From a plasmid, in the sequence record NZ_CP102943.1: a DNA stretch of 38,606 nucleotides; one strand, given 5' to 3'. Positions within the stretch are counted from its first letter, which is position 1, and each line of letters opens with the position of its first letter. The notes beneath the pieces were generated by a model that was not told the origin of the DNA, did no database searches, and worked only from the letters and a program-made list of their open reading frames with translations. This document shows, in pieces, positions 10 to 33,633 of the stretch. The translations under genes and the position numbers were made by a program.

Positions 10-2391
10 ATGCAGCGTTTGATGGTTGTGGAGAGCCCCAACAAGATCAAGAAACTTGAGGCCATCTTGGGAGCCGAATGGAAGGTGATGGCCAGCTACG
101 GTCATGTGCGGGATCTACCGCCCAAGGATCTGGGGATAGATCTGGACGATTTCGGCCTGACCTATGAGTACCTGCCGCCGGTTAAGCGGGGCGATAAGAC
201 GTTCCCCGGCAGTGCCGAGCGTGTTGCGGCGATCAAGAAGCAGGCGAAGGGAGCGGACCGGGTTTACCTGGCTTCGGACCCGGATCGCGAGGGCGAGGCG
301 ATCAGCTGGCATCTGCGTGAGGCGGTGGGCCTTGCGCCGGGCCAATACGTGCGCGTCACGTTTGGCGAGATCATGGGCGCAGCAGTCCGCGCCTCGGTGG
401 AGTCGCCGCGCGAGATCGATATGCAGCTGGTGGACGCCCAGCAGGCCCGCCGAGCCCTGGACCGCATGGTGGGCTGGCTGGTGTCGCCAGTGTTGTCGGA
501 CGTACTGGGCCGGAACGTTTCCGCCGGCCGAGTTCAGAGTTTGGTGGTGCGGTTGATTGTGGACCGGGAGCGCGCTATCCGCGCCTTCAAACCGGTGGGG
601 CATTTCGGCGCGATGGTGTCGTTCGCCGCTGGCGGTGACAGTAAGGCAGGGTGGAGCGCTGCATGGGACACGGGCCCGCACCTGAGCGAAGGCCAGCAGT
701 ACGTGCTGGATGAAGCGTTGGCGGGCAAGGCCAGCCAATGCCGGCGGTTTGAAGTCCTGGCATCCGAGGGGAAGGACGCTCGGCAGGCCCCGCCGTCACC
801 GTTCAGCACCGCACTGCTGCTGCAAGCCGCCAGCGCGAAGCTGAAACTGACGGTTGCGCAGGTCGAGAAAGCGGCGCAGAAGCTGTACGAAGACGGCTTC
901 GTGAACTACATCCGTACCGACTCGGTGAACCTGTCGGCCGAAGCGGTGCCGATGATTCGCGCGTACGCCGTGGAAAAGGGGTTCGCAGTGCCGGCAGAGC
1001 CACGGAAGTGGAAGGAAGACGCCGACGCGCAGGAGGGGCATGAGGCCATCAGGCCGATTTCCATGGACGTGGAAGAAGCCGGCAGCGACGACGTGCAGCG
1101 TGCGGTCTATAAGCTCATTCGTGACCGTACCCTCGCCAGCCAGATTGAGGACGCGCGTTACCGCGTCAATACGGTTCGCCTGCGGGCCGTGGGTGCCGAT
1201 GAAGCTTTTGAATTTGACGCGACCGGCCGGGTGATGACGCTTCCAGGGTGGCGAGCGGTGGCCGGCGGCGATGCTGTCGAAGCTGAGGCCGAAGAGGCCG
1301 AGCCCGCAAACGCCGTGCCGGTGTTGGATGTTGGCGCGATCATCGATGCTGTGACGGGGGAAGTGCAGCGCAAGAAGACACAGGCCCCGGCGCGCTACAC
1401 CGAGTCCACATTGGTAAAGAAGCTGAAAAACGAGGGCGTGGGCAGACCGTCCACGTTGCCGGCGATCATCAACACCATTCAGGCGAGGGGCTACGTTGAA
1501 TTGCAGAAACGTCAGTTCGTTCCTACCTCGCTTGGGGAAATGGTCACCGATGTGCTGGTGCGGGCAGGTTTCAGCTTCATGGAAGTGGATTTCACCCGGC
1601 AACTGGAAGGACAGCTGGACGCTATCGCGCGAGGCGCAGCGAGCTATGGGGAAGTGGTCGGACCGGCTTACAGGCTGTTGATCGATGAGTTGGCCAAGGT
1701 GGGTGAGAGCGGCGAGTTCGCCCCGGCCTTCAAGTGCCCGAAGTGCGCGCAAGGGCTGCGCATGTTCAGCGGCAGTGCGGCCCGCTCTGCCTACTGGCGC
1801 TGCGTGAACACCGAAGGGTGCGGGCACTTCATGGATGACAAGGACGGCAAGCCGGTAGAGCGCGCCGTTCACCCATGCCCGAGGTGCGCCACGCCTCTGC
1901 GGCGATACCGCCGCAAGAGCGGCGTCGGCCACCTGTGGGCCTGCCCGGTGGATGAGTGCAACACCCTGCTGGATGACAACGCCGGCAAGCCGGTGGCGAT
2001 CCATAAGTGCGGTAAATGCGGCACGGTCCTTCGCCGTTTCCAGAAGAAGAACCGGGACACAGGGCGCCTCCTTCAGAAATGGGGCTGGTTCTGCCCCAAT
2101 GAGGAAGGGGGCTGTAAGAACTTCTTAGACGACAAGGACGGCGTGCCGGTGCCGGTGCCCGTGCACCCGTGCCCGGCGTGTGGCAAGGCGATGCACCTGC
2201 GGTCAGGGGAACACGGCAAGTTCTGGGGGTGCAGTGGCTACCGCGACGGCTGCAAGACGGTGATGGATGACAAGGGCGGCAAGCCTGTGCCCAAAGGCGC
2301 CGCTGGTGCCGGCGGATCTGCCAGGAAGGCAGGGAAGGGCGCTGGTGGCAAGGCTTCCCCGGCCGTGGTCAGGATCGGGATAAAGCACTAG
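10..2391 (+). CDS. Type IA DNA topoisomerase (TopA/TopB-like) with 4 C-terminal C4 zinc-ribbon repeats
   Basis: N-terminal TOPRIM-like VVESPNKIKKLEAILG...GHVRDLP resembles the topo I N-terminus. C-terminus has four tandem repeats of the form CPxC...W.C...C...DDKxGKPV (zf-C4 topoisomerase type). Full length, with ATG at 10. Confidence 0.85.
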   Translation: MQRLMVVESPNKIKKLEAILGAEWKVMASYGHVRDLPPKDLGIDLDDFGLTYEYLPPVKRGDKTFPGSAERVAAIKKQAKGADRVYLASDPDREGEAISWHLREAVGLAPGQYVRVTFGEIMGAAVRASVESPREIDMQLVDAQQARRALDRMVGWLVSPVLSDVLGRNVSAGRVQSLVVRLIVDRERAIRAFKPVGHFGAMVSFAAGGDSKAGWSAAWDTGPHLSEGQQYVLDEALAGKASQCRRFEVLASEGKDARQAPPSPFSTALLLQAASAKLKLTVAQVEKAAQKLYEDGFVNYIRTDSVNLSAEAVPMIRAYAVEKGFAVPAEPRKWKEDADAQEGHEAIRPISMDVEEAGSDDVQRAVYKLIRDRTLASQIEDARYRVNTVRLRAVGADEAFEFDATGRVMTLPGWRAVAGGDAVEAEAEEAEPANAVPVLDVGAIIDAVTGEVQRKKTQAPARYTESTLVKKLKNEGVGRPSTLPAIINTIQARGYVELQKRQFVPTSLGEMVTDVLVRAGFSFMEVDFTRQLEGQLDAIARGAASYGEVVGPAYRLLIDELAKVGESGEFAPAFKCPKCAQGLRMFSGSAARSAYWRCVNTEGCGHFMDDKDGKPVERAVHPCPRCATPLRRYRRKSGVGHLWACPVDECNTLLDDNAGKPVAIHKCGKCGTVLRRFQKKNRDTGRLLQKWGWFCPNEEGGCKNFLDDKDGVPVPVPVHPCPACGKAMHLRSGEHGKFWGCSGYRDGCKTVMDDKGGKPVPKGAAGAGGSARKAGKGAGGKASPAVVRIGIKH

Positions 2392-8956: not shown

Positions 8957-9843
8957 GCCGGGGCCTGTTGCTGGCGGTCGCCCTGGCCGTGACCAGTCCG
9001 GTGGCTCAGGCGCTCGATGAGCCCACTTCCTCGCCATTCGACAACCGCATCCAGTACGTCAATTACAACGATGGTGATGTGGTCCTGGTACGGGCTGTCG
9101 CCGGTCTGGGCATGCGGATCGTGCTTCACCCCGGCGAGCGGATCATTGGCGTTGCCAGTGGCTTTTCGCAGGGCTGGGAGTTCAGCGATAAGGGGCACAT
9201 CCTGTACCTGAAACCGAAGTCCATCGGCGGCGGTGACAGCGGCCAGGAGGTAATGACTCCCGAGCCGGGGAAGTGGGACACCAACGTCATGGTGACCACC
9301 GATCAGCGCATGTACGACTTTGACTTGCGCCTGTTGCGTGGCGACAACTCGGGTGCACCGCCCAAGAGCCAGCCGGTGGCCTACCGGGTGCAGTTCCGCT
9401 ATCCCGCCGAGGCCAAGCAGCACGAAGTGGCTCAGGCGTCGAAGGAAATGGCACGTGCGCGGCTCGACACCCCACCCCGTCCCGTCAATTGGGACTACTC
9501 CATGCAGGTGGGCGATGCGTCCGAAGGCATCGCTCCGTCGATGGCGTATGACGACGGCCGGTTCACTTATCTGCGATTCCCCAACAACCGCGAGTTCCCA
9601 ACCGCCTTCCTCGTCGCCGGCGACGGGAGCGAGAGCATTGTGAATAGCCATATCGACCCGCGCATGCCGGACATGCTGGTGCTGCATCGGGTATCGCCGG
9701 CGCTGGTGCTGCGGCTCGGCAGCGCGGTAGTGGGCATCTACAACGACAGCTTTGACGCCGATGGCGTGCCGTCGCGCACGGGCACCACCGTGCCGAACGT
9801 TCGCCGTGTCCTCAAGGCAGCAGGGAGTTCCAACGATGAATAA
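8953..9843 (+). CDS. virB9: VirB9 outer-membrane core-complex protein
   Basis: Signal peptide MSRGLLLAVALAVTSPVAQA; ATGA overlap with virB8. Confidence 0.8.
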   Translation: MSRGLLLAVALAVTSPVAQALDEPTSSPFDNRIQYVNYNDGDVVLVRAVAGLGMRIVLHPGERIIGVASGFSQGWEFSDKGHILYLKPKSIGGGDSGQEVMTPEPGKWDTNVMVTTDQRMYDFDLRLLRGDNSGAPPKSQPVAYRVQFRYPAEAKQHEVAQASKEMARARLDTPPRPVNWDYSMQVGDASEGIAPSMAYDDGRFTYLRFPNNREFPTAFLVAGDGSESIVNSHIDPRMPDMLVLHRVSPALVLRLGSAVVGIYNDSFDADGVPSRTGTTVPNVRRVLKAAGSSNDE

Positions 9844-10996: not shown

Positions 10997-12054
10997 TGAA
11001 CGCGAGTGTGCAGCCACAGCCTGGGGTGGTGTCGTTCGGCCGGGATACCAGCGTGCGTCATCTGCTCAAACCCTTGCAGCGCTGGTTTGAAGAAGATGGG
11101 GTGACGGAAATCTGTGTGAACCGTCCTGGTGAAGTGTTCATTGAAAAAGAAAGCCGGTGGGAGCGGTTTGAAGTACCTGAATTGACCTTCGACGCCTTGG
11201 AGTCGCTTGCGACAGCTGTCTCCAAGCTGGCCGGCCAGGAGATCAACGAAAGCCACCCGATGCTGTCGGCGGTGCTGCCGGGCCGCGAGCGAGTTCAGGT
11301 GGTGTCGTACCCCGCCTGCGAGCATGGGACGGTTTCGCTGACCGTTCGCCGCCCATCGTTCGGTCGGCGAACGCTGGATCAGTATCAGGCGCAAGGCTTT
11401 TTCAGCCACATCCGGCCGATCTCCGAAGGATTGACACAGGTCGAATCGGATATGGAAGCGATGCTCGGTGCCGGCGACTACATGCAGTTCCTGCGCTCGG
11501 CCGTGCAGCACGAAAAGGTGATCGTGGTGGCCGGCGCAACCGGCTCGGGCAAGACCACGTTCATGAAAGCGCTCATGCAGGAGATCCCCACCCACCAGCG
11601 CATCATCACGATTGAGGACACGCCGGAACTGTTCCTGCCGGACCATCCCAACCACGTGCATCTGTTCTACCCCAGCGAGGCGAAGGAGGAAGAGAACGCC
11701 TCGACCACCGCCGCAACATGCCTGAAAAGCTGCATGCGCATGAAACCCGACCGGATCTTGCTGGCGGAGCTACGCGGGGGTGAAACGTACGATTTCGTCA
11801 ACGTCTGCGCATCCGGCCATGGCGGCAGCATCACCAGTCTGCATGCCGGGTCGTGCGAAATGGCCTTTGAACGGATGGCGCTGATGATCCTCCAGAATCG
11901 CCAGGGCCGCACGTTGCCATACGAGGTTATCCGCCGGCTGCTCTACCTGGTGGTGGACGTGGTGGTTCATGTCCACAACGAGGTCACCTTGCCCGACCTG
12001 GGCCGGCACATTACCGGCATCTGGTTCCAGCCCATGAAGAAGTGGCAGGGCTGA
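10996..12054 (+). CDS. virB11: VirB11 T4SS ATPase
   Basis: Walker A GATGSGKTT; about 352 aa; ATGA overlap with virB10. Confidence 0.9.
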   Translation: MNASVQPQPGVVSFGRDTSVRHLLKPLQRWFEEDGVTEICVNRPGEVFIEKESRWERFEVPELTFDALESLATAVSKLAGQEINESHPMLSAVLPGRERVQVVSYPACEHGTVSLTVRRPSFGRRTLDQYQAQGFFSHIRPISEGLTQVESDMEAMLGAGDYMQFLRSAVQHEKVIVVAGATGSGKTTFMKALMQEIPTHQRIITIEDTPELFLPDHPNHVHLFYPSEAKEEENASTTAATCLKSCMRMKPDRILLAELRGGETYDFVNVCASGHGGSITSLHAGSCEMAFERMALMILQNRQGRTLPYEVIRRLLYLVVDVVVHVHNEVTLPDLGRHITGIWFQPMKKWQG

Positions 12055-12179
12055 GGTGCCACCGCCGGGCTCTGCCTGCGCGGTCCAAAGCAGTTGGGGA
12101 CGGCTGGCCGCATCGAGCGCGGCCAGCTGTCGCCAAGACAGTTTCAGCGCGCCGATGGCGCCCTACTCGGAGAGAACCC

Positions 12180-14894
<2,715 letters not shown>

Positions 14895-17697: not shown

Positions 17698-17710
17698 GGC
17701 GACGGTGGCG

Positions 17711-18148
17711 TGGCTGGCCAGCTGAGATCCGTCGCCAAGACAGATTCAGCGCAAGGGCGTCCTGCCTGCGCGTGCACACGGGGCCCGGTGTGGAAGTCGC
17801 CTGTGCCGTGCATCCGTGGTTGGTGACAGCGCCGATTCCCTGCCGCGCAGATCGGTCGCCAAGACAGATTCAGCGCAAGCGCAAGACAGATTCAGCGCAA
17901 GCGCACCCTCCCCTGCATATGCCCGGCAACTGCCGCTGCGGGAGGCTGTGCGTGGCGTCCGTGGTTGGCGACTGCGGGTTGGCTGGCCGGCTGAGATCCG
18001 TCGCCAAGACAGATTCAGCGCAAGGGCGTCCTGCCTGCGCGTTCACACGGGGCCCGGTGTGGAAGTCGCCTGTGCCGTGCATCCGTAGTTGGTGACAGCG
18101 CCGAGGCCATGCCGCGCAGATCCGTCACCAAGACAGATTCAGCGCAAT
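17711..18148. repeat. Iteron-like array: five copies of GTCGCCAAGACAGATTCAGCGCAAG inside two roughly 150-bp direct repeats
   Basis: Copies at about 17731, 17855, 17881 (overlapping tandem), 18000 and 18124. Pairs are spaced about 124 bp apart. Unit 17711-17880 is nearly identical to 17980-18148. Confidence 0.8.
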
Positions 18149-18168
18149 AGATCGCACATTGTCAATCG

Positions 18169-18745: not shown

Positions 18746-19285
18746 ATGAAAAGAACTATCGCAACCGTTGCACTGGCCGCTCTGTTCTCCGCTGGCGCTT
18801 CCTCGGCAGGCGCTCAGGAATTCACCGGAGACGTGAAGTACGCATGCGAGGCCATCATGTGTCTGTCCACCGGGAACCGGCCCAGCGAGTGCCAGCCGTC
18901 GCTGGAACGCTATTTCAGCATCAGCGCCAAGAAGGTTTCGGACACGATCAAGAAGCGCAAGAACTTCTTGCAGCTGTGCCCGGCAGCGGATGACAGCGAA
19001 GATATGAAGAAGCTGGTAGACGACCTAGCCAACGGCGCACAGAAATGCGATGCGGCCACGCTGAACCAAGAACTGCGCGTGGGCAGGTTCGGGATCATCA
19101 GCAACCGTCTCCCGGCTCACTGTGCATCTTCGGGTTCGGCGAAGTACGTGGGCATCCCTGGACGCGGTGGCCGTTGGGTCGATGCCGCAGACTACGACCG
19201 AGCGAACCAACAGCACGAACAGCAGCAGAATGCTGCATCGTGGCGCTACGGCAATGCCGGCGAAACCACGGAACAGCTGCGATGA
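18746..19285 (+). CDS. Secreted cysteine-rich protein (possibly TrbM-like periplasmic)
   Basis: AGGAAG RBS; signal peptide MKRTIATVALAALFSAGASSAGAQE; about 8 Cys. Confidence 0.55.
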   Translation: MKRTIATVALAALFSAGASSAGAQEFTGDVKYACEAIMCLSTGNRPSECQPSLERYFSISAKKVSDTIKKRKNFLQLCPAADDSEDMKKLVDDLANGAQKCDAATLNQELRVGRFGIISNRLPAHCASSGSAKYVGIPGRGGRWVDAADYDRANQQHEQQQNAASWRYGNAGETTEQLR

Positions 19286-19537: not shown

Positions 19538-20614
19538 TTAGTCGCGGTCCTGGCCCTTGGGTGGGCTTGCCGGCGGCCGTGGGTCGCTGGCTTTGGCGGG
19601 AGTGAGCGATGGCGCTCTCCCCTGCCCTGCCTGCTCAACCTGCTTGAACTGCTCGACCAGGGCCTGATGACGGGTTTGCAATGTTGGCATGCTCTTAACC
19701 ATGCCAACGATGCCCACCGCAAGTTCGCGGGACTCAACGTCACCCTGGGCAACCAACGTGCGTGCGATCTCGGCGTAGACACGCTGCACGCGCTGTCTTT
19801 GTCTTGCGATGTTCCGCTCCGCCGGATTCGCGCGAGGTTTGCCGCTCTTGGCTTCCTGCCGGGCATCCTGGCGCTGCTGTTCGGCACGGTAGGAAGTCCG
19901 CCCGTCCTGCTCCATCTGCTTGATGGCCTGCCGCACCGGACGTTGAACGACTCCCCTCGCCTTACGCGTGGTGGCATTCGCTTCGATGCCCTGGGCGCGT
20001 AGGTGTTCCGCGAACGAATCGCGCCAGTGCGCCAGATCGGCCTTCCGGTGCTGGAGCCTGTACCCGTCAAAGCCCGCTATCTTGACCACCAGGTGCACGT
20101 GCGTGTGGTCTTCGTCGTCATGCTCGGCAAAGGCGTACTGGTGGCCCTGGAAGTTCTCTCGCGCCAGCTCACGGACAGCCGTGGTCACCGATGGCCGGTG
20201 TGTGCCAGCTGGCATCGAGAACACGATATTGAGGGCCTCTCGGCGTTTCTCGCCATGCTCAGGCATACCGATACCGCCATGCTTCCATTCGTCCCGAAGG
20301 GCACGAATGTCCTCGCGTCCTTCGTATATCTCCCCACGCTCATTCTCTACAGCTACCTCGCCATTGCGTGAGATGTAGTCCATATGTGCTTTGACATGCC
20401 GCATGTTGCGGCCCCCGCCCGAGATCTTCACCACGACTTCGGGGGCGCGCTTAACGATCCGCTTGATCCGCTCGATGGCCGCAGGCCCTGTAAGACCTGG
20501 GCGCCCCTGCTGCTTAGGCGCACGCGTCCTGCCACCACGGACGTTCTTGGCCTTTCTACCCTTGAGGGTATGGCCGCTGAGTTCTTCGCCCCACGCGGGC
20601 AGGAATGTAGTCAT
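19538..20614 (-). CDS. Conjugative relaxase, MobA/VirD2-type (likely MOBP-like)
   Basis: N-terminal VVKISGGGRN...AHMDYISRNG carries the catalytic Tyr motif and AEHDDEDHTHVHLVV is the His triad. The ATG at 20614 overlaps the mobC stop (ATGA). Confidence 0.8.
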   Translation of the reverse strand: MTTFLPAWGEELSGHTLKGRKAKNVRGGRTRAPKQQGRPGLTGPAAIERIKRIVKRAPEVVVKISGGGRNMRHVKAHMDYISRNGEVAVENERGEIYEGREDIRALRDEWKHGGIGMPEHGEKRREALNIVFSMPAGTHRPSVTTAVRELARENFQGHQYAFAEHDDEDHTHVHLVVKIAGFDGYRLQHRKADLAHWRDSFAEHLRAQGIEANATTRKARGVVQRPVRQAIKQMEQDGRTSYRAEQQRQDARQEAKSGKPRANPAERNIARQRQRVQRVYAEIARTLVAQGDVESRELAVGIVGMVKSMPTLQTRHQALVEQFKQVEQAGQGRAPSLTPAKASDPRPPASPPKGQDRD

Positions 20615-21162
20615 TCGATTGGCCACCGTTCAAGGCTTGCTCTGGTTACATCGGACACATGCCGGATGTGCTGCTGAATGACCCCATGCAGTGCGTCCAG
20701 CTTCTCAATCTGTAGTGCTGCGCCCCTCCCCTCATTGAGCCGCCGTGCGATCTGATTGATGTTCCGACCGATGGCCATCAGCTGATAGTTGGAATCCCCA
20801 AGTACCTCGACAGCCCGCATCCCAAACTGCGGTTCACGGGTCAACGCCGCACGGATGGCATCAACCATGAAACGGCGCATCGAGCAGCCCTCAAGGTCGG
20901 CTCGCTCGCGTACCCCGGCCTTCTCCGACGTGGTGAGTAGTAGCTCGCACCGCTCCTTACGCTCAGGCTCGGTCGGCTCTCGGCTGCGTTTGATGGCCGC
21001 AACAGGCTCTGCCTTCCCGGCAGCTTCCAAGATCTGCTCGATGGTCGCCTGAATCAAAGCGGATGAGGTCACGCCCTGGCTCTTGCAGTGCGCTTCCCAC
21101 TGCCGCTTCAACTCCGGCCGCAGCCTGACACTCAATGTGGGGTAACGGGCATCAGTTGTCAT
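20611..21162 (-). CDS. mobC: MobC-family relaxosome accessory protein with two RHH motifs
   Basis: LMAIGRNINQIARRLN matches the MobC signature; an N-terminal RHH-like segment; lies upstream of and coupled to the relaxase. Confidence 0.8.
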   Translation of the reverse strand: MTTDARYPTLSVRLRPELKRQWEAHCKSQGVTSSALIQATIEQILEAAGKAEPVAAIKRSREPTEPERKERCELLLTTSEKAGVRERADLEGCSMRRFMVDAIRAALTREPQFGMRAVEVLGDSNYQLMAIGRNINQIARRLNEGRGAALQIEKLDALHGVIQQHIRHVSDVTRASLERWPIE

Positions 21163-21172
21163 GGCAGATCGC

Positions 21173-21270
21173 GAGGCATAACGGGGAGGGGGGGAGCAAA
21201 GTCACATTGTGTGACAATTTACCGGCCAACGGCCTATCCTGCAATAGCCCCCTCCCCCTCCCTATGCCTC
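21173..21270. other. Candidate oriT: imperfect 25-bp inverted repeats flanking GTCACAttgTGTGAC and an RP4-like nick core CCTATCCTGC
   Basis: Left arm GAGGCATAACGGGGAGGGGGGGAGC and right arm GCAATAGCCCCCTCCCCCTCCCTATGCCTC. Core YATCCTG|C at about 21233-21242. Immediately upstream of mobC. Confidence 0.6.
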
Positions 21271-21462
21271 GGTGAATCTGGCATTTGCGGGTCTGGGGAC
21301 AATCCGCGAGTGCGGATTGGGGCTATTCGCGGTCGGCGGCGGCAGCTGGGTTGCCCTTGGGCAACGCTTCTAAGCTGACCCGCTGCCCTGCTCTAGGCGC
21401 GGCTAGTCGTCCGATGGGCGAAGCCCGAGAAGACTCGCCCGCGCTACCGGCCAGGACTAGAA

Positions 21463-21482
21463 CCCTTAGTCATGACTAAGGG
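21463..21482. promoter_or_regulatory. Perfect 20-bp palindrome CCCTTAGTCATGACTAAGGG (candidate KorB/ParB operator or parS)
   Basis: Perfect palindrome with TTAG...CTAA ends like RP4 OB (TTTAGCSGCTAAA). A near-copy TTTGTCATGACTAAGG lies at about 22453-22468 inside parB. Confidence 0.55.
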
Positions 21483-21630
21483 TGCGAAGGGCAAAAGCTG
21501 TGGCCGGTGGTGGGGGGTCGTGACTGGATGCGGGACGCGCCGGAGACTTGATGAAGGCGCTCAACGGTTCACTGTGCGGGTGGAGCGCGCTCCTTCCAGT
21601 CGCTGGTTTCCGCAGCGGCTGTGCCGCTGC

Positions 21631-22092
21631 CTAGTCGGCTGAGTCCTGCGACGTACACGCGAGGGCATCCAACTTGTCGCCGATGGCGATTCCGGTGCGT
21701 GCGAATTCCCCGGCTGGGAGTTCCAACGCATATCTGGCGGGGGCACCGGAGAAGTAATAGACGGGCAGGGCGCTGCCGGGAGCGTCTACGGACATGGCCT
21801 GTATGTCAAAAACCGTGCCGAGGTCATCGATAAAGGCCACGTCCAACGGAGCGGGGGTGTCCTTCATCCAGAAGACGCGCGGCTCGGCGTCGGTCCATAC
21901 GAACAACAGCTTACCCGTCTTGCCGCTCAACCCCTTGGCTTGCTCGGCCACTGTGCGAGCAACAGCCGCCTCCACTACTGCGCCAGTGGAGAAAGAGACT
22001 CGGCAAGTTTCGGAAGCCAGGACGGGTAGAGGGGTCAAACAGAGTAGGGCAGTGATAAACACTGCCCTACGTCGGCCGAGGCCGTGTGTCAC
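21631..22092 (-). CDS. DUF192-family secreted protein
   Basis: FWMKDTPAPLDVAFIDDLG...YALELPAGE matches DUF192. Probable GTG start overlaps the parB stop (GTGA). Signal peptide present. An alternative ATG lies at 22125. Confidence 0.65.
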   Translation of the reverse strand: MTHGLGRRRAVFITALLCLTPLPVLASETCRVSFSTGAVVEAAVARTVAEQAKGLSGKTGKLLFVWTDAEPRVFWMKDTPAPLDVAFIDDLGTVFDIQAMSVDAPGSALPVYYFSGAPARYALELPAGEFARTGIAIGDKLDALACTSQDSAD

Positions 22093-23231
22093 TTGTCCGC
22101 GTCCTTCAACAGATGGATTCGGCATTCGTCGGCGGGGACCTCGGCGTCACCGCCCCCGTCCTCGTACCTGATGCGGATCAGTCCGGCGTCAGTCGGTCGG
22201 CGATTCAACAGAACGGCCGCAACGCGGTTGTTGTGCGAGATCAGCAGAAGCGGCTTCTTCATGCTGTCCGGATCAGAGACCGCTTTCCCACGCGGCCAGC
22301 TGGTCAGCTCGCCGGTGTCCACATCGCTACCGCCGTCAGCACCGCCGGCACTACTCGGCTTGCGGGAGCCCTGGCCGTTGTCGGGGGTCGATCCGTCGCC
22401 CTTGGCTGACTGTCCACCGGGCTCGCCACCGCCGGTACCCCCTTCGTTTCCTTTGTCATGACTAAGGATCTGAGTCGGGTCCGCACTGCCCGCTTTGGGA
22501 TCGACCGTATTGGTAGCGTCGCCGTGTCCCTTGATGGGAGTAACACGGGTCGTTCCCTTCAAGCGGTCGCCGAGTTCCAGCACCGACTTCCGAGTAACGT
22601 CGTCTTCGCCCTCACACCACGCATCCACCTCGGCGGGGAACTTCTCATGCAGAGACCGAAGTTCGTACAAGGTCTTGGGTGAGGTGCAGCGGCCGGAGCG
22701 ATAGATCGTTTCGATGCTGGCCGGCGCATCGACCAACGACAGCAGTTCGGTGATCGTGCTGGCAGGGCGGGCAAGACGGCGAGCTACTTCGGCCTTCTTC
22801 ATGCCGGCATTCTCGATCTTGTCCCTGATGAACATGGCGAGTTCCATCGGCTTGAGGTTGTCTCGTGCCTCATTCTCAATGACCTGATCGAAGTCATCGC
22901 TAGTGTCATCGATGAAGGCCGGGATGGTGGTCATGCCGGCCCGGATCGATCCCCGGTAACGTCGGGCGCCCCAGTTGAGCAACCACTTGCCGGCCTTCTC
23001 CGGGTGAGGCCGCACCGACACCGGCTGGCGCACACCACGGAGACGGATGCTGGCCTCCATTTCGGCCATCTTCTCTTCGGTGAATTCCTTGCGCGGCTGA
23101 TTGGGATCTTCCTCGATCTCGGTAATCGCCAGCTGCAACGGCTTACCGTCGGAAACCGGGACAGGCGGCGCAGCGGGCGCGGTCGGACCGAGCGGGGACG
23201 CCTTCTTGAGATTGGACAGATCAAGAGCCAT
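22089..23231 (-). CDS. korB: KorB/ParB-family partition and global repressor protein
   Basis: Strong similarity to RP4 KorB: EDPNQPRKEF..., GARRYRGS, IPAFIDD...DQVIENEARD, and C-terminal LLNRRP...IRYEDGG. Confidence 0.85.
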   Translation of the reverse strand: MALDLSNLKKASPLGPTAPAAPPVPVSDGKPLQLAITEIEEDPNQPRKEFTEEKMAEMEASIRLRGVRQPVSVRPHPEKAGKWLLNWGARRYRGSIRAGMTTIPAFIDDTSDDFDQVIENEARDNLKPMELAMFIRDKIENAGMKKAEVARRLARPASTITELLSLVDAPASIETIYRSGRCTSPKTLYELRSLHEKFPAEVDAWCEGEDDVTRKSVLELGDRLKGTTRVTPIKGHGDATNTVDPKAGSADPTQILSHDKGNEGGTGGGEPGGQSAKGDGSTPDNGQGSRKPSSAGGADGGSDVDTGELTSWPRGKAVSDPDSMKKPLLLISHNNRVAAVLLNRRPTDAGLIRIRYEDGGGDAEVPADECRIHLLKDADK

Positions 23232-24034
23232 TAGGCCACCTCCATGATGGATGCCAGCTTGTCAAATACCGGCTTCATTTCAAGCCATGCGGTTCGGCCC
23301 GAGGTCTTGGGATGCTTCCACACGGGTACGCCCGCTGCCTGGGCTTCGGCAATGGCAGTGGTCTTCTTGATCGCAGCGAATCCCTTGGCTTCGGGGGCCA
23401 TGGAAATGAGCAATTCAGGGAAGTGGGTCGCGAGGTCGTGGAAGTTGCCCTTCTGGAACGGCGTGGGTTCCACAAGATTGGGCAAAATGCCAATCAGTTT
23501 CAGATTCGGGTTGACGGATGCTTGGATGTTGTGGATGCCGAGAACGGGATGATTCAACAGGTCGCCGATGCCATCGATAGCTTCCTGGTTCAGCTGAATC
23601 GGTGACAAGACGTAATCCGCCGTGCACAGCGCGCTCAACTGGCGAATGTCTGGGTTCGGGTTGGTGTCGATAAGGCACACATCAAACCGATCGCTTACCG
23701 ATGCCAGGAAAGCATGAAAGTAGTTCACGTACTTGTTGTGTTCTGCATCCCCCTGCTTCTCCATCAGGATCAGATCCGGATGACCTTCGATCAAGACGAA
23801 TTCAGCGTCCTCAATGACAGGCGGGGTAGGGGTGGTGAGCAGGTGAATACTATTCACAGCAGAGACGGTCGCCATGCCGCTGAGGCGGATTGCCTTGCTG
23901 CTGTTCCGCTGGTGATCGAAGTCAACCACCAAGACGCGCAGTTTCCGAATGCCAGCGAGGTGATACGCCTGCTGCGAAAGAACTGCTGACTTGCCTACGC
24001 CGCCCTTCTGATTCGCATATACAACAGTCTTCAT
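23231..24034 (-). CDS. incC: ParA/IncC partition ATPase
   Basis: MKTVVYANQKGGVGKS deviant Walker A; 267 aa. Confidence 0.9.
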   Translation of the reverse strand: MKTVVYANQKGGVGKSAVLSQQAYHLAGIRKLRVLVVDFDHQRNSSKAIRLSGMATVSAVNSIHLLTTPTPPVIEDAEFVLIEGHPDLILMEKQGDAEHNKYVNYFHAFLASVSDRFDVCLIDTNPNPDIRQLSALCTADYVLSPIQLNQEAIDGIGDLLNHPVLGIHNIQASVNPNLKLIGILPNLVEPTPFQKGNFHDLATHFPELLISMAPEAKGFAAIKKTTAIAEAQAAGVPVWKHPKTSGRTAWLEMKPVFDKLASIMEVA

Positions 24035-24426
24035 GCCCGATTGCTCCTGAGAAATTTCTTGACCGTGCTGGCCGTGACGTCCACTCCCAACGACGCGAGA
24101 TAGGTCACAATCTGACCTGCTTCATACCCTTTGTCCCGAAGGGCTAGAACCTCGCGTGCGTAGGGTTCGATTGCTGCATTTGCTGCGAGAGGAGGCACCG
24201 AGGCCATGAAACTGTTCAGCCGGTGCGTCTCTACCTTCTTCAAGAACCTGCTGACCAATACCCTTGCCTGCTTAGCTGACATGTTGTTCGCTTCGCCGGC
24301 CTGTTTCGCTGAATGACCATCTACGAGAATGGATCTGACGGCCTGGATGTTGGCTTCTGACCATCTGCATTGCGCCTTGGCCACCTCGTCGAACTGAGCG
24401 GCATCCATTCGTGGTGTCGCGGTCAT
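24031..24426 (-). CDS. korA: KorA/TrfB-family transcriptional repressor
   Basis: AAQFDEVAKAQ...ILVDGHSAKQAGEANNMSAKQARVLVSRF aligns with RP4 KorA (QFQEAIQG...LVDGKPQATFA...). Start uncertain (24426 or 24408). The order korA-incC-korB is as in IncP. Confidence 0.7.
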   Translation of the reverse strand: MTATPRMDAAQFDEVAKAQCRWSEANIQAVRSILVDGHSAKQAGEANNMSAKQARVLVSRFLKKVETHRLNSFMASVPPLAANAAIEPYAREVLALRDKGYEAGQIVTYLASLGVDVTASTVKKFLRSNRA

Positions 24427-24482: not shown

Positions 24483-25026
24483 TAGAAAACAATGAAAACA
24501 ACACGCGGGCAACAAATAGATCCACGTATTTGCTTTAGATGAGCCATGAATTCCATTCTCGTTAAGCAAGAATTCATATGTTTTCTATTGCCGCTTGCCG
24601 CCAGTGGCCCTAGAACGCCCTGTAAGCGCGTACAAGGCGGGTTCGTAGGAAGTGCTACCTACCCCTAGCGAAGCGCTCAGTCCGGTCGTATGCGATGCTG
24701 TGGAGCGCCTGTAGGCACATAGCAACGCCATTGGAGCCTATCCACAGATTTCGCCGGTTATTTACAGGTATCTAGAGATAGAGGCAGAAAAGCAACTACA
24801 GGGGACGGCAGTTGCTCAGTCGAAAAGAACTTTAGAATCAAACTGTTGCGGCTGATTCTCTTTGCATCGACAAGACAACATCAGCGTAAAATTGCAAGAC
24901 AACATCAGCGCAGGCATTTGTGGGTAACCTCGCGAAGTCGTGTATTTTCAATGGCTTGCATTGATTCTTAGCGCAAGACTGTTTCAGCGTGGATAACACA
25001 GGAATCCCACAGGCTTACCCCCAATA

Positions 25027-26657: not shown

Positions 26658-27734
26658 TCAGAAAGGAAGTGCCCGCTGCGTAGGCAGCTTAGGTACGTGC
26701 GTGGGGCTGGGGTACAGGATCAAGCCGGTGTCGCAGGTTGATAGTTTCGCTTCGGTGTAGATGGTGGCCACGTGCTTGAGTTCGCGAAGGAAGGCTCGCT
26801 TAAAGTCGCGCACGCCTTGTTCGTTACGGGCGTAGCCTGCACCGAACTGTGCGGCCAGGGAGAACCACGGTACGACGGTTCGGCGCGACAGATAGCTCAT
26901 GCGATGCGTCAGCCACACATAAATATCCAGCGCCATTGGCGAGTGGCGGAGCGCCTTCATAGCCATCATGTTGACCGGGACGGGGTGGTCAATGCACTCA
27001 TTGAAGAACGGCTTGGACAATTCCAACGTCGAGCGCCATTGTCCAGCTTGCTCCTTGTTCTGTGGCTCCCACCAGTGGACCCCATCGGCCAGCTGCACGT
27101 TGCGCAACGCCCACTCATCGACACCCTGGTACTGGCACGTAATGATGGCGCTGAACAACGTCGTCATCGCGTGCTTCAGGCGCGTAATGTCGCCTCGCTT
27201 GCCGCCCGTGTTTTTCAACCCGAGTGCGCGCAGGTAATCGGCGAGTGTATCCCCTACGAACAACGTCGATTCCCTGGTACGAACTGCTTCGGAGCAAACC
27301 CACGTCAGCAGCAGGCGGGGCAGTGTGCCGTAAGGGAGGCCATCAGGGTGCGCCGTGAGCATGGTGAGGGTGAAGTCACCATTCTTGCGGACAAAACGGT
27401 ACTCATCGACAACCCGACGATGAGGCAGGGTGGCAATAGCGAGGGCTCTCGTCATGTAACCGATAGAGCCGGATGCCTTGGCATCGCTGGCCTCAATCGC
27501 GAGGTGCGCGCTGATGAGGTCTTTGACGCGGCTGGGAAGTTCCTCATACCGGTAGTCATAGACCGGGCGGAAAGCAACCTCCTTCGCACGCTTGCCGGCC
27601 GGCTGGATCTCGCCCTGTTCCGAGTCTGGGCCGCTCATGGCGCTCAGATCGACGGCTGTACGCCGGCGGCTAGTGGATGCGCCGGCCCGTTTACTGGCGG
27701 TTCGGCGCGGTGTGGTAGCATCGGTATCAGTCAT
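26658..27734 (-). CDS. repA: Plasmid replication initiator protein (RepA-type, RepA_C-like)
   Basis: PMALDIYVWLTHRMSYL...VPW..LAAQFGAGY matches the C-terminal signature of plasmid RepA initiators; ATG at 27734 (alternative TTG at 27749). Confidence 0.7.
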   Translation of the reverse strand: MTDTDATTPRRTASKRAGASTSRRRTAVDLSAMSGPDSEQGEIQPAGKRAKEVAFRPVYDYRYEELPSRVKDLISAHLAIEASDAKASGSIGYMTRALAIATLPHRRVVDEYRFVRKNGDFTLTMLTAHPDGLPYGTLPRLLLTWVCSEAVRTRESTLFVGDTLADYLRALGLKNTGGKRGDITRLKHAMTTLFSAIITCQYQGVDEWALRNVQLADGVHWWEPQNKEQAGQWRSTLELSKPFFNECIDHPVPVNMMAMKALRHSPMALDIYVWLTHRMSYLSRRTVVPWFSLAAQFGAGYARNEQGVRDFKRAFLRELKHVATIYTEAKLSTCDTGLILYPSPTHVPKLPTQRALPF

Positions 27735-27763
27735 CGTTGCCTGTCCCAAATTGGTAATGATGC

Positions 27764-33325: not shown

Positions 33326-33633
33326 CTGCTTATGTCCTGACGGATGACGCTGAAGCTGATTTGCGCAGCGTCATCCGCTACTCCCGGAGACAATGGGGCG
33401 ATGCCCAGGCGAGGCGCTACGTGACGACAATGCAGCAGGAGGTAGATCGGCTTGTAGCCGGGCACTCAGCGGCTAAAGACATGGGTGACCTCTACCCGTC
33501 GCTACGGATGGGGCGCTGTGGGCATCACTATGTGTTCTTCTTGCCCGCAGGCAACTCCCCCACGCTGGTGGTCGCGATATTCCATGAGCGCATGGATTTG
33601 ATGACCCGAGTTGCTGCACGCCTGGGCGTTTGA
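33322..33633 (+). CDS. parE: ParE/RelE-family toxin
   Basis: 103 aa; LRSVIRYSRRQWG...HHYVFF...VVAIFHERMD matches the ParE pattern. Confidence 0.8.
   Translation: MTAYVLTDDAEADLRSVIRYSRRQWGDAQARRYVTTMQQEVDRLVAGHSAAKDMGDLYPSLRMGRCGHHYVFFLPAGNSPTLVVAIFHERMDLMTRVAARLGV

What the first reader, a model, noticed from the sequence alone, without database searches (positions are those of the whole stretch)
21463..22468. Perfect 20-bp palindrome CCCTTAGTCATGACTAAGGG plus a near-copy inside parB: candidate KorB/ParB operator or centromere
This KorB homolog aligns with RP4 KorB over at least 150 residues. RP4 KorB binds a 13-bp palindrome TTTAGC(C/G)GCTAAA whose ends, TTAG...CTAA, are reproduced here. 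One copy sits in the 470-bp intergenic region between oriT and the end of the korA-incC-korB-DUF192 operon. A 13/14 match, TTTGTCATGACTAA, lies within the parB coding sequence. Intragenic OB sites are known for RP4. Only two copies were found by eye, so others may have been missed.
Basis: partly seen in the sequence, partly recalled or inferred. Interest (0 to 1): 0.6.

Follow-up and report, generated by a model that had tools for sequence, protein, structure and literature searches.

The report
KorB binding sites of a PromA-like plasmid
The palindrome and its near-copy inside the partition gene korB are very probably the two DNA sites where this plasmid's own KorB protein binds to segregate the plasmid; this is an ordinary but cleanly conserved example of a known kind of plasmid centromere.

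Summary
A perfect palindrome, 22 bp rather than 20 (ACCCTTAGTCATGACTAAGGGT, 21462-21483), lies between the korA-incC-korB-DUF192 operon and oriT. A near-copy (22449-22468) lies inside korB. An exhaustive search finds no further copy.

The window is a near-complete PromA-like conjugative plasmid. Every related plasmid examined that spans the region carries the same core, TT-N-GTCATGAC-N-AA, in the same two places: the korB linker codons and upstream of mobC/oriT. Both copies tend to change together and symmetrically, for example TTGGTCATGACCAA in pTer331 and TTGTTCATGAACAA in a Massilia contig. The intragenic copy is the most conserved 14 nt of korB, although it sits in the hypervariable linker. 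Its synonymous positions are frozen while the encoded residues vary.

The experimentally proven KorB site (parS/OB) of IncU plasmid RA3, TTTCGTACGTACGAAA, has the same outer arms. It sits 33 bp from nic, as in eight classical PromA loci (32-34 bp).

In this clade the intergenic site lies about 230 bp from nic. It is extended by GC-rich arms and, in two relatives, followed by a T-run that looks like a terminator.

Verdict: a new member of a known kind, of modest interest. KorB binding itself is untested.

The parts
21462..21483 (.). Intergenic site: 22-bp perfect palindrome ACCCTTAGTCATGACTAAGGGT, with family core TTAGTCATGACTAA at 21466-21479. Candidate KorB loading site (parS/OB). In this clade it may also be the stem of the operon's terminator.
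   Evidence: Identical in relatives L001 and L002 within diverged flanks. Homologous site in 16 of the 19 other KorB loci that span this interval. Terminator-like in L001 and L002 only.
22449..22468 (.). Intragenic site TCCTTTGTCATGACTAAGGA, core 22452-22465, 13/14 to the intergenic core. It lies in the codons for KorB linker residues L-S-H-D-K-G (about aa 256-261).
   Evidence: Conserved at the same linker position in 18 of the 21 other loci that include the linker. DNA-level constraint shown by the codon test.
22089..23231 (-). korB (380 aa): ParB_N (CTPase fold, GARRYRGS box), KorB HTH domain, Gly/Pro-rich linker, KorB_C dimerisation domain.
23231..24034 (-). incC/parA (267 aa), a ParA-type ATPase and partner of KorB.
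   Evidence: AAA_31, CbiA, MipZ.
24031..24426 (-). Gene at the korA position (131 aa, HTH). It has only a weak, sub-threshold match to the Pfam KORA/TrfB family.
21631..22125 (-). DUF192 gene, last gene of the operon and syntenic across the PromA family.
21187..21262 (.). oriT core. G-rich and C-rich arms flank the nic motif TATCCTG/CAATAG (21235-21247, + strand), the predicted mobC promoter, and the palindrome GTCACAttgTGTGAC (21201-21215). The nic lies 231 bp from the centre of the intergenic site.
   Evidence: Motif assignments follow the RA3/PromA oriT alignment described in PMC4175270. This is inference.
19538..21162 (-). mobC (NikA/MobC-like, 20611-21162) and MOBP relaxase (19538-20626). 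This is the operon whose promoter KorB regulates in RA3.
   Evidence: PMC7414963.

Best explanation
The two sites are the specific binding (loading) sites of the plasmid's own KorB, a ParB-family CTPase. They are the PromA-family counterpart of the RA3 parS/OB. KorB dimers recognise the palindromic core TT-N-GTCATGAC-N-AA through their HTH domains at both sites, which are 986 bp apart and bracket the 3' half of korB and the DUF192 gene. By analogy with RK2 KorB and other ParB proteins, KorB then closes as a CTP clamp and spreads over neighbouring DNA, including oriT and the mobC promoter. The resulting nucleoprotein complex is the centromere that IncC (ParA) uses to partition this low-copy plasmid. 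It probably also damps mobC-relaxase transcription, as KorB does in RA3. Shown here: the existence, uniqueness, conservation, concerted change and DNA-level selection of the sites, their positional and sequence homology with the RA3 site, and the KorB/IncC domain content. Inferred: binding by KorB, CTP-dependent sliding, partition activity and repression. In this clade the intergenic site has moved about 200 bp away from oriT and gained GC-rich arms. In two relatives it also has a T-run, so it may additionally terminate the korA-incC-korB-DUF192 transcript.
For: Only two copies exist, against about 0.01 expected. The window's KorB has ParB_N, KorB and KorB_C domains. It aligns to RK2 KorB over 201 residues, including an identical GARRYRGS box. 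A ParA partner is encoded immediately upstream. Both sites are conserved in L001 and L002 (KorB 83% and 77% identical) while the flanks diverge. The linker copy is found in 18 of the 21 other loci that include the linker, and the mobC-proximal copy in 16 of the 19 that span that interval. The copies change in concert and symmetrically. Examples are TTGGTCATGACCAA in all copies of pTer331, TTCGTCATGACGAA in L010, L011 and L013, TTGTTCATGAACAA twice in L014, and GTTCGTCATGACGAAC twice in L016. This pattern is expected for one dimeric reader of both sites. Codon test: of 112 amino-acid-invariant degenerate columns in 11 korB genes, only 7 have an invariant third base. The site's CAT and GAC codons are two of those 7. 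The site is the best-conserved 14-nt window of the whole gene (12/14 invariant) although it lies in the hypervariable linker. The flanking residues vary S/G/R and K/E/Q exactly as palindrome positions 4 and 11 vary. RA3's KorB site is TTTCGTACGTACGAAA at 9707-9722 (PMC8124265 and PMC4175270; sequence read). It shares the arms TTTCGT...ACGAAA with PromA sites such as L010. It lies 33 bp from nic, against 32-34 bp in eight PromA loci. RK2 KorB is a CTP-dependent sliding clamp loaded at OB (PMC11790492).
Against: No binding data exist for any PromA KorB. The window has only two sites, so a global-regulator role like that of RK2 (12 OB sites) is unlikely here. In the window clade the site is 231-243 bp from nic rather than about 33 bp, so direct control of the mobC promoter is less obvious. 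In L017 and L018 the two copies are discordant: TTCGTCATGACGAA in korB and TTTGCCATGGCAAA downstream. A different, much more abundant conserved motif exists on these plasmids (CAAGACA-NN-TTCAGCG, 12 good copies), and its binding protein is unknown. Deleting parS alone did not destabilise RA3 in E. coli, which the authors attribute to the other OB sites (PMC8124265), so the contribution of a single site may be small.
Confidence: 0.8

Rival explanations
1. The intergenic palindrome is primarily or only the stem-loop of a rho-independent terminator ending the korA-incC-korB-DUF192 transcript. On this view the intragenic near-copy is incidental.
For: The palindrome lies 148 bp downstream of the DUF192 stop codon, on the operon's path. 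In L001 and L002 the identical hairpin is followed by ATTTTTTT and TTCTTTTT, and the terminator scan flags both. The RNA hairpin of 9 bp with a CAUG loop is predicted in all three sequences. In this clade no other terminator-like element lies between the DUF192 gene and oriT. pTer331 has a separate hairpin plus T-run directly after its DUF192 gene, which suggests that role was taken over here.
Against: In the window the tail is TTCTAGTCC and the scan does not call a terminator. The fold z-score is only -1.3. A terminator constrains structure rather than sequence, yet the 14-nt core is conserved in sequence across plasmids with 46-83% KorB identity. In most of them it has no GC stem or T-run and abuts oriT. 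The terminator view cannot explain the second copy inside korB, the DNA-level selection on that copy, or the concerted symmetric changes in both copies. At most it describes an added role in this clade.
Confidence: 0.1
2. The palindromes are bound by a protein other than KorB. Candidates are the korA-position HTH protein, the RHH protein MobC, and a host factor. KorB would then recognise something else, such as the abundant CAAGACA-NN-TTCAGCG motif.
For: No binding data exist. The asymmetric 16-mer has 12 good copies in the window and is conserved across the family, a distribution reminiscent of the 12 OB sites of RK2. The intergenic palindrome lies in the region where relaxosome accessory proteins act.
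Against: In RA3 the homologous palindrome at the homologous position was shown to be the KorB site, while MobC and KorA have different operators that overlap their own promoters (PMC4175270 and PMC7414963). ParB/KorB proteins bind palindromes as dimers, and the abundant motif has no dyad symmetry. One copy of the palindrome is physically inside korB in 18 of the 21 other loci whose sequence includes the linker, and chromosomal KorB homologues (L024, L025) are followed within about 20 bp by a related CATG-centred palindrome. This is the linkage expected between a ParB and its own site.
Confidence: 0.07
3. The intragenic copy is a by-product of selection on the protein (a functional L-S-H-D-K motif in the KorB linker), and its similarity to the intergenic palindrome is chance.
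For: His-Asp is invariant in the 11 aligned KorB proteins.
Against: The third codon positions of CAT and GAC are invariant in 11 of 11 genes, whereas the 13 other invariant His and Asp columns mix C and T, 12 of them freely and one in only two genes. Neighbouring residues swap among Ser/Gly/Arg and Lys/Glu/Gln, following the palindrome. In L014 even the Asp becomes Glu (GAA), with the symmetric change on the other arm, and the same new sequence appears in the intergenic copy. Chance expectation for the 14-mer at up to 2 mismatches is 0.01.
Confidence: 0.02

Closest known systems
parS / OB (IR-SnaBI) of IncU plasmid RA3, TTTCGTACGTACGAAA, the binding site of KorB(RA3)
   Same: Both are even-length palindromes with TT(T)CGT...ACGAA(A)-type arms, identical to the arms of several PromA sites. 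The module order is the same: korA-incC-korB-small gene, then the site, then oriT-mobC-relaxase. The spacing is the same in classical PromA plasmids, with the site centre 32-34 bp from nic against 33 bp in RA3. Both have few copies per plasmid: RA3 has three perfect ones. The KorB proteins are homologous, 35% identical over the N-terminal and HTH domains.
   Different: The central 4 bp differ: CATG here, ACGT in RA3. RA3 has no copy inside korB; its other copies are at orf02p and inside the transfer region. In the window clade the intergenic site lies about 231 bp from nic, has extra GC-rich arms, and follows a DUF192 gene rather than orf11 and mpR. RA3 Orf11 is not a DUF192 protein.
OB operators of IncP-1 plasmids RK2/RP4, TTTAGC(C/G)GCTAAA, the loading sites of the CTP-dependent KorB clamp
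   Same: The cognate protein is homologous: 201 aligned residues, an identical GARRYRGS box, and a KorB_C domain. Both are palindromic sites with T-rich outer arms. RK2 also has sites far from promoters. KorB has a dual partition and regulation role there.
   Different: The RK2 site has odd symmetry (13 bp) and a different core, and no RP4-type OB occurs in the window. RK2 has 12 sites forming a global regulon, against 2 here. The korA-position protein here is only marginally KorA-like, so the KorA clamp-locking mechanism (PMC11790492) cannot be assumed.
Chromosomal parS inside the parB/spo0J gene (Bacillus subtilis Spo0J-parS; from general knowledge, Lin and Grossman 1998)
   Same: A ParB-family protein whose recognition palindrome is embedded in its own coding sequence, so that the gene and its site are inherited together.
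   Different: The parS sequence is unrelated. That case is a chromosomal system with about 8-10 sites around oriC. Here the site lies in the flexible linker codons of a plasmid KorB.

Membership tests
ParB/KorB recognition site (parS / OB) of a type Ia partition system | Short palindrome (13-16 bp) suited to an HTH dimer | tested here: met
   Perfect 22-bp palindrome with a 14-bp family core, plus a second copy at 13/14.
ParB/KorB recognition site (parS / OB) of a type Ia partition system | A cognate ParB-family protein (ParB_N CTPase fold, HTH, dimerisation domain) and a ParA ATPase encoded next to the site | tested here: met
   korB has ParB_N, KorB and KorB_C domains and incC has AAA_31/CbiA. 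KorB aligns to RK2 KorB structures 8qa8, 1r71 and 1igq.
ParB/KorB recognition site (parS / OB) of a type Ia partition system | The site is conserved with the protein across relatives and its copies evolve in concert | tested here: met
   Linker copy in 18 of 21 other loci that include the linker, and mobC-proximal copy in 16 of 19 that span that interval. Concerted symmetric variants occur in pTer331, L010, L014 and L016. L017 and L018 are a discordant exception.
ParB/KorB recognition site (parS / OB) of a type Ia partition system | Specific binding by the cognate ParB/KorB | not testable with these tools
   Needs EMSA, ChIP or footprinting. Only the RA3 homologue has been tested experimentally (PMC4175270, PMC8124265).
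ParB/KorB recognition site (parS / OB) of a type Ia partition system | Acts in cis as a centromere: stabilises a replicon with ParA/ParB supplied in trans and exerts incompatibility | not testable with these tools
   Needs a plasmid stability assay.
[quoted passage not shown] | Location between the korA-incC-korB operon and oriT-mobC | tested here: met
   The site is at 21462-21483, between the DUF192 stop (21631) and the mobC start (21162).
[quoted passage not shown] | Immediate adjacency to oriT, with the site centre about 33 bp from nic | tested here: not met
   231 bp in the window and 243 bp in L001 and L002, against 32-34 bp in eight PromA loci and 33 bp in RA3. The window clade is a positional variant.
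[quoted passage not shown] | Sequence relationship to TTTCGTACGTACGAAA | tested here: inconclusive
   The PromA consensus shares both arms; for example L010 has TTTCGTCATGACGAAA. The window's own site, CTTAGTCATGACTAAG, differs at the variable arm position and in the central 4 bp. There is no hit to the RA3 14-mer at up to 3 mismatches.
IncP-1 (RK2/RP4) OB operator | Sequence TTTAGC(C/G)GCTAAA | tested here: not met
   One chance-level hit with 2 mismatches, at 33465 (expected 0.29), and none at the finding.
IncP-1 (RK2/RP4) OB operator | Many copies at or near the promoters of replication, transfer and control operons (a global regulon) | tested here: not met
   There are only two copies and neither is at the korA-operon promoter.
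Intrinsic (rho-independent) terminator | Stable stem-loop at the 3' end of an operon | tested here: met
   A 9-bp stem with a CAUG loop lies 148 nt after the DUF192 stop codon.
Intrinsic (rho-independent) terminator | U-tract immediately after the stem | tested here: not met
   The window tail is UUCUAGUCC and is not called by the scan. The feature is met in relatives L001 and L002.

The most novel reading that the evidence does not exclude
The korB-internal copy may be a family-wide KorB loading site written into the codons of KorB's own flexible linker and selected at the DNA level. The partition gene would then carry its centromere wherever it recombines, and specificity changes would have to be made in both arms and both copies together. 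In the window clade the second site has been detached from oriT and fused with the operon's terminator hairpin. KorB occupancy could then control read-through from the partition operon into oriT and mobC, coupling vertical and horizontal transmission.
Probability: 0.2. Interest if true: 0.5.

Novelty: new member of a known kind. Interest (0 to 1): 0.35.

Why it matters
[quoted passage not shown] The analysis gives a precise, testable consensus, TT-N-GTCATGAC-N-AA. It also gives a two-site architecture, one copy in the korB linker and one beside oriT, that is found in nearly all of the PromA-family loci examined. These could be used to annotate centromeres, predict partition incompatibility between PromA subgroups from the variable arm position, and design mini-replicons. 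The natural variants, together with the differing KorB recognition helices, form a ready-made series for studying how ParB-family specificity shifts. For this window the result is mainly an annotation. The finding is real, and it is the expected centromere/operator of the plasmid.

Tried and rejected
- **Extra copies.** Searches of the window with 20-mer, 14-mer, 12-mer and half-site patterns found none beyond chance.
- **RP4-type and RA3-type OB sequences.** Neither occurs in the window.
- **Near-identical plasmids.** Megablast of the 6-kb region against PLSDB gave only a 72% ParA fragment in pTer331. Relatives therefore had to be reached through the protein.
- **Prior description in the literature.** Searches for the PromA site, including the sequence string itself, found nothing in the held library. 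The key RA3 centromere paper (Kulinska et al. 2011, AEM 77:2414, PMC3067450) is not held. From memory, its abstract says that similar cis-acting motifs are evident in PromA plasmids. I could not verify this.
- **A third site in the coupling-protein gene.** Several PromA plasmids carry one about 215-230 bp before the traN stop codon. It is absent from the window, L001, L002, L010 and L011; L012 also lacks one in the part fetched.
- **A code linking the KorB recognition helix to site variants.** The pairings are suggestive. ITELL goes with A or C at position 4, ITQHL with G, ITRHM with GTTCATGAAC, and RA3's VSDHI with the ACGT centre. They are confounded by phylogeny and are not a clean code.
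- **The KorA clamp-locking mechanism.** The korA-position protein has only sub-threshold similarity to KorA/TrfB, so this step of the RK2 model was not adopted.
- **Not pursued.** A dif/res-type recombination site and a single-strand initiation hairpin were considered and dropped. Neither explains a sequence-conserved second copy inside korB.
Full report
**1. Observation**

The sequence CCCTTAGTCATGACTAAGGG is at 21463-21482. The near-copy TCCTTTGTCATGACTAAGGA is at 22449-22468. The perfect palindrome is in fact 22 bp, ACCCTTAGTCATGACTAAGGGT at 21462-21483. It is the longest perfect palindrome in the 62% G+C window; the next longest are two 20-bp ones made only of G and C.

The 14-nt core TTAGTCATGACTAA has exactly two matches at up to 2 mismatches, against 0.01 expected. 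A 12-mer with 3 mismatches adds only chance-level hits. The half-site CTTAGTCA occurs nowhere else.

**2. Context**

On the minus strand lie, in order:
- a 131-aa HTH gene at the korA position (24031-24426);
- incC/parA (23231-24034);
- korB (22089-23231), with ParB_N, KorB HTH and KorB_C domains;
- a DUF192 gene (21631-22125);
- a 468-bp gap;
- mobC (20611-21162) and a MOBP relaxase gene (19538-20626).

The rest of the window encodes a VirB-type T4SS, a coupling protein (12042-14894), an LPD7 primase-like protein and a RepA_C replication protein (26658-27749).

KorB aligns to RK2 KorB (8qa8) over residues 21-221 with E 1.6e-39, including an identical GARRYRGS box. Its C-terminus aligns to the KorB dimerisation domain 1igq.

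The closest annotated relatives are PromA-family plasmids. These include a B. pseudomallei plasmid at 62% KorB identity and pTer331, pSB102 and the pYK/pMH series at about 51-53%. Two unannotated Logan contigs of 38.1 and 36.6 kb encode KorB proteins 83% and 77% identical to the window's (82% and 74% by the database search) and share the gene order. The window's length and gene content suggest it is a nearly complete plasmid of this lineage. That is an inference, since no terminal overlap was found.

**3. Comparative evidence**

*Close relatives.* In L001 and L002 the intergenic palindrome GACCCTTAGTCATGACTAAGGGT is identical while the DNA immediately around it diverges. The korB-internal copy is kept as CCTTAGTCATGAC(A/G)AAGGAAA.

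*More distant relatives.* The same core appears in the same two places in the B. pseudomallei plasmid (TTAGTCATGACGAA twice) and in pTer331 (TTGGTCATGACCAA twice in that interval). Across the loci fetched, the picture is as follows:
- All 10 PromA plasmids from the first round carry both copies.
- Of the 11 additional genome loci that include the linker, 8 carry the linker copy. Of the 9 that also span the downstream interval, 6 carry the intergenic copy.
- The intragenic copy always sits at about codon 235-257, in the linker.
- The intergenic copy always sits between the DUF192 gene (or korB) and mobC.

*Concerted change.* The arm position next to the core varies between plasmids (A, G, C or T), usually in both arms and both copies together. 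The clearest case is the Massilia contig L014. There the core itself changed symmetrically to TTGTTCATGAACAA in both copies. One exception exists: in L017 and L018 the copy in korB is TTCGTCATGACGAA and the downstream copy is TTTGCCATGGCAAA.

**4. The intragenic copy is selected as DNA**

I aligned 11 korB genes codon by codon.
- Of 112 columns with an invariant amino acid and a degenerate codon, only 7 have an invariant third base.
- The site's His (CAT in 11 of 11) and Asp (GAC in 11 of 11) are two of those 7. All 13 other invariant His and Asp columns contain both C and T.
- The site is the 14-nt window with the most invariant nucleotide columns in the whole gene (12 of 14), although it lies in the hypervariable Gly/Pro-rich linker.
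- The residues on either side change radically, Ser/Gly/Arg before His and Lys/Glu/Gln after Asp. These changes follow exactly palindrome positions 4 and 11.

The protein sequence here is a passenger of the DNA site.

**5. Link to experiment**

[quoted passage not shown] The core of parS, IR-SnaBI, is the KorB operator OB. It lies directly before oriT and the mobC-nic operon. KorB also regulates orf02p, mobCp and orf23p (PMC4175270, PMC7414963 and PMC8124265).

The deleted parS coordinates, 9707-9722, read TTTCGTACGTACGAAA. Perfect copies occur at 2075, 9707 and 23579. The arms TTTCGT...ACGAAA are the same as in PromA sites such as TTTCGTCATGACGAAA in L010 and L013. Only the central four bases differ.

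The centre of the RA3 site is 33 bp from the predicted nic. The corresponding distance is 32-34 bp in eight PromA loci. The PromA palindrome is therefore the positional and sequence homologue of a proven KorB site. RA3 has no copy inside korB.

**6. What is particular to the window clade**

In the window, L001 and L002 the intergenic site lies 231-243 bp from nic rather than about 33 bp. It carries additional ACCC/GGGT arms. In L001 and L002 it is followed by ATTTTTTT and TTCTTTTT, so the scan calls it terminator-like there.

In the window the tail is TTCTAGTCC and no terminator is called. The hairpin is predicted in all three. pTer331 has a separate hairpin plus T-run after its DUF192 gene. 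I read this as a KorB site that, in this lineage, was displaced from oriT and may have taken on the operon's terminator role. In the window itself that second role is doubtful.

**7. Mechanism proposed**

KorB dimers bind both palindromes. By analogy with RK2 KorB and other ParB proteins, KorB loads there as a CTP-dependent clamp and spreads over the roughly 1-kb interval and its flanks, including oriT and mobCp (PMC11790492). IncC/ParA uses this complex to partition the plasmid. Some repression of mobC-relaxase is likely, by analogy with RA3.

With only two sites and none at the korA-operon promoter, a global regulon of the RK2 type is not expected. The korA-position protein is only marginally KorA-like, so KorA-mediated clamp locking is not assumed. 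Binding, sliding, partition and repression are all inferences.

**8. Rivals**

- *Terminator only.* This fails to explain the sequence conservation, the second copy, the concerted changes, or the missing T-run in the window.
- *Another protein binds the palindrome.* This runs against the RA3 data, the dyad symmetry, and the physical linkage of the site to korB. Chromosomal KorB homologues L024 and L025 are likewise followed within about 20 bp by AAAATCATTCATGAATGATTTT.
- *Protein-level selection on the linker.* The codon test excludes this.

The abundant asymmetric motif CAAGACA-NN-TTCAGCG is a separate, conserved element whose binding protein is unknown. It is the main reason my confidence is not higher.

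**9. Comparison and novelty**

The closest known element is the RA3 parS/OB. The RK2/RP4 OB is a more distant relative with a different core and odd symmetry, and it is absent from the window.

A recognition site inside the parB gene has a precedent in B. subtilis spo0J (general knowledge). I found no open-access description of the PromA KorB site. The RA3 centromere paper is not held. From memory, it states that similar cis-acting motifs exist in PromA plasmids.

I therefore class the finding as a new member of a known kind. The family-wide, DNA-selected copy in the korB linker and the displaced, terminator-like copy in this clade are the only modestly new points.

**10. Verdict**

Confidence that these are KorB sites is about 0.8. 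Interest is 0.35.

Noticed in passing
window 12134, 17736, 17860, 17882, 18005, 18129, 23792, 24871, 24895, 24974, 26162, 36872 (all + strand): An asymmetric 16-mer, CAAGACA-NN-TTCAGCG (often GCCAAGACAGATTCAGCGCAAG), has 14 matches at up to 2 mismatches against 0.17 expected. It is conserved across the PromA family, with exact matches in 21 of 28 fetched loci. Copies cluster upstream of the ssb-korA operon, and one recurrent copy lies inside incC. It may be the operator of an unidentified global regulator. It has no dyad symmetry.
   Followed up: partly
window 17700-18150: An apparently non-coding stretch between the primase-like region and the OmpA-like/TrbM genes holds five copies of the 16-mer. 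They lie within long direct repeats of about 135 bp (17715-17850 and 17985-18120). No Pfam hit was found for the ORF that overlaps this stretch.
   Followed up: no
L006 17452-17465, L007 22536-22549, L008 18740-18753, L009 18553-18566, L013 30223-30236: Several classical PromA plasmids carry a third copy of the KorB-type palindrome, about 215-230 bp before the stop codon of the coupling-protein gene traN. It is absent from the window, L001, L002, L010 and L011. L012 also has none in the part fetched.
   Followed up: partly
L017 5014-5027 and L018 5594-5607: In two Methylomonas/Kiritimatiellales contigs the intergenic site is GTTTGCCATGGCAAAC while the korB-internal site is GTTCGTCATGACGAAC. 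This is the only case found where the two copies do not match.
   Followed up: no
L024 4954-4975 and L025 4957-4978: Chromosomal KorB homologues (36-37% identity; Nitrincola and Oceanospirillales MAGs) are followed about 20 bp after the gene by a 22-bp perfect palindrome, AAAATCATTCATGAATGATTTT, also centred on CATG. They have no intragenic copy.
   Followed up: no
window 24546-24577: An inverted repeat, ATGAATTC-N16-GAATTCAT, lies just upstream of the korA-position gene. It may be the autoregulatory operator of that operon.
   Followed up: no
window 21201-21215 and 21300-21319: The palindrome GTCACAttgTGTGAC lies next to the predicted mobC -10 element and is a putative MobC operator. A hairpin, CAATCCGCgagtGCGGATTG, lies between the KorB site and oriT. 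The hairpin is conserved in L001, and in L002 it persists with altered stem bases.
   Followed up: no
window 26658-27749 (minus strand): The replication protein belongs to the RepA_C family (PF04796), as in L001 and L002. In the PLSDB PromA plasmids the repA gene is longer (1.2-1.5 kb) and lies next to a thermonuclease gene. This lineage may therefore pair a PromA-type partition and transfer backbone with a different replicon. The Rep proteins were not compared directly.
   Followed up: no
window 2115-2127 and 18957-18971: Two odd-length palindromes share the core AAGAACTTCTT: TAAGAACTTCTTA and GCAAGAACTTCTTGC. That is two sites (four strand-wise matches) against 0.24 matches expected.
   Followed up: no
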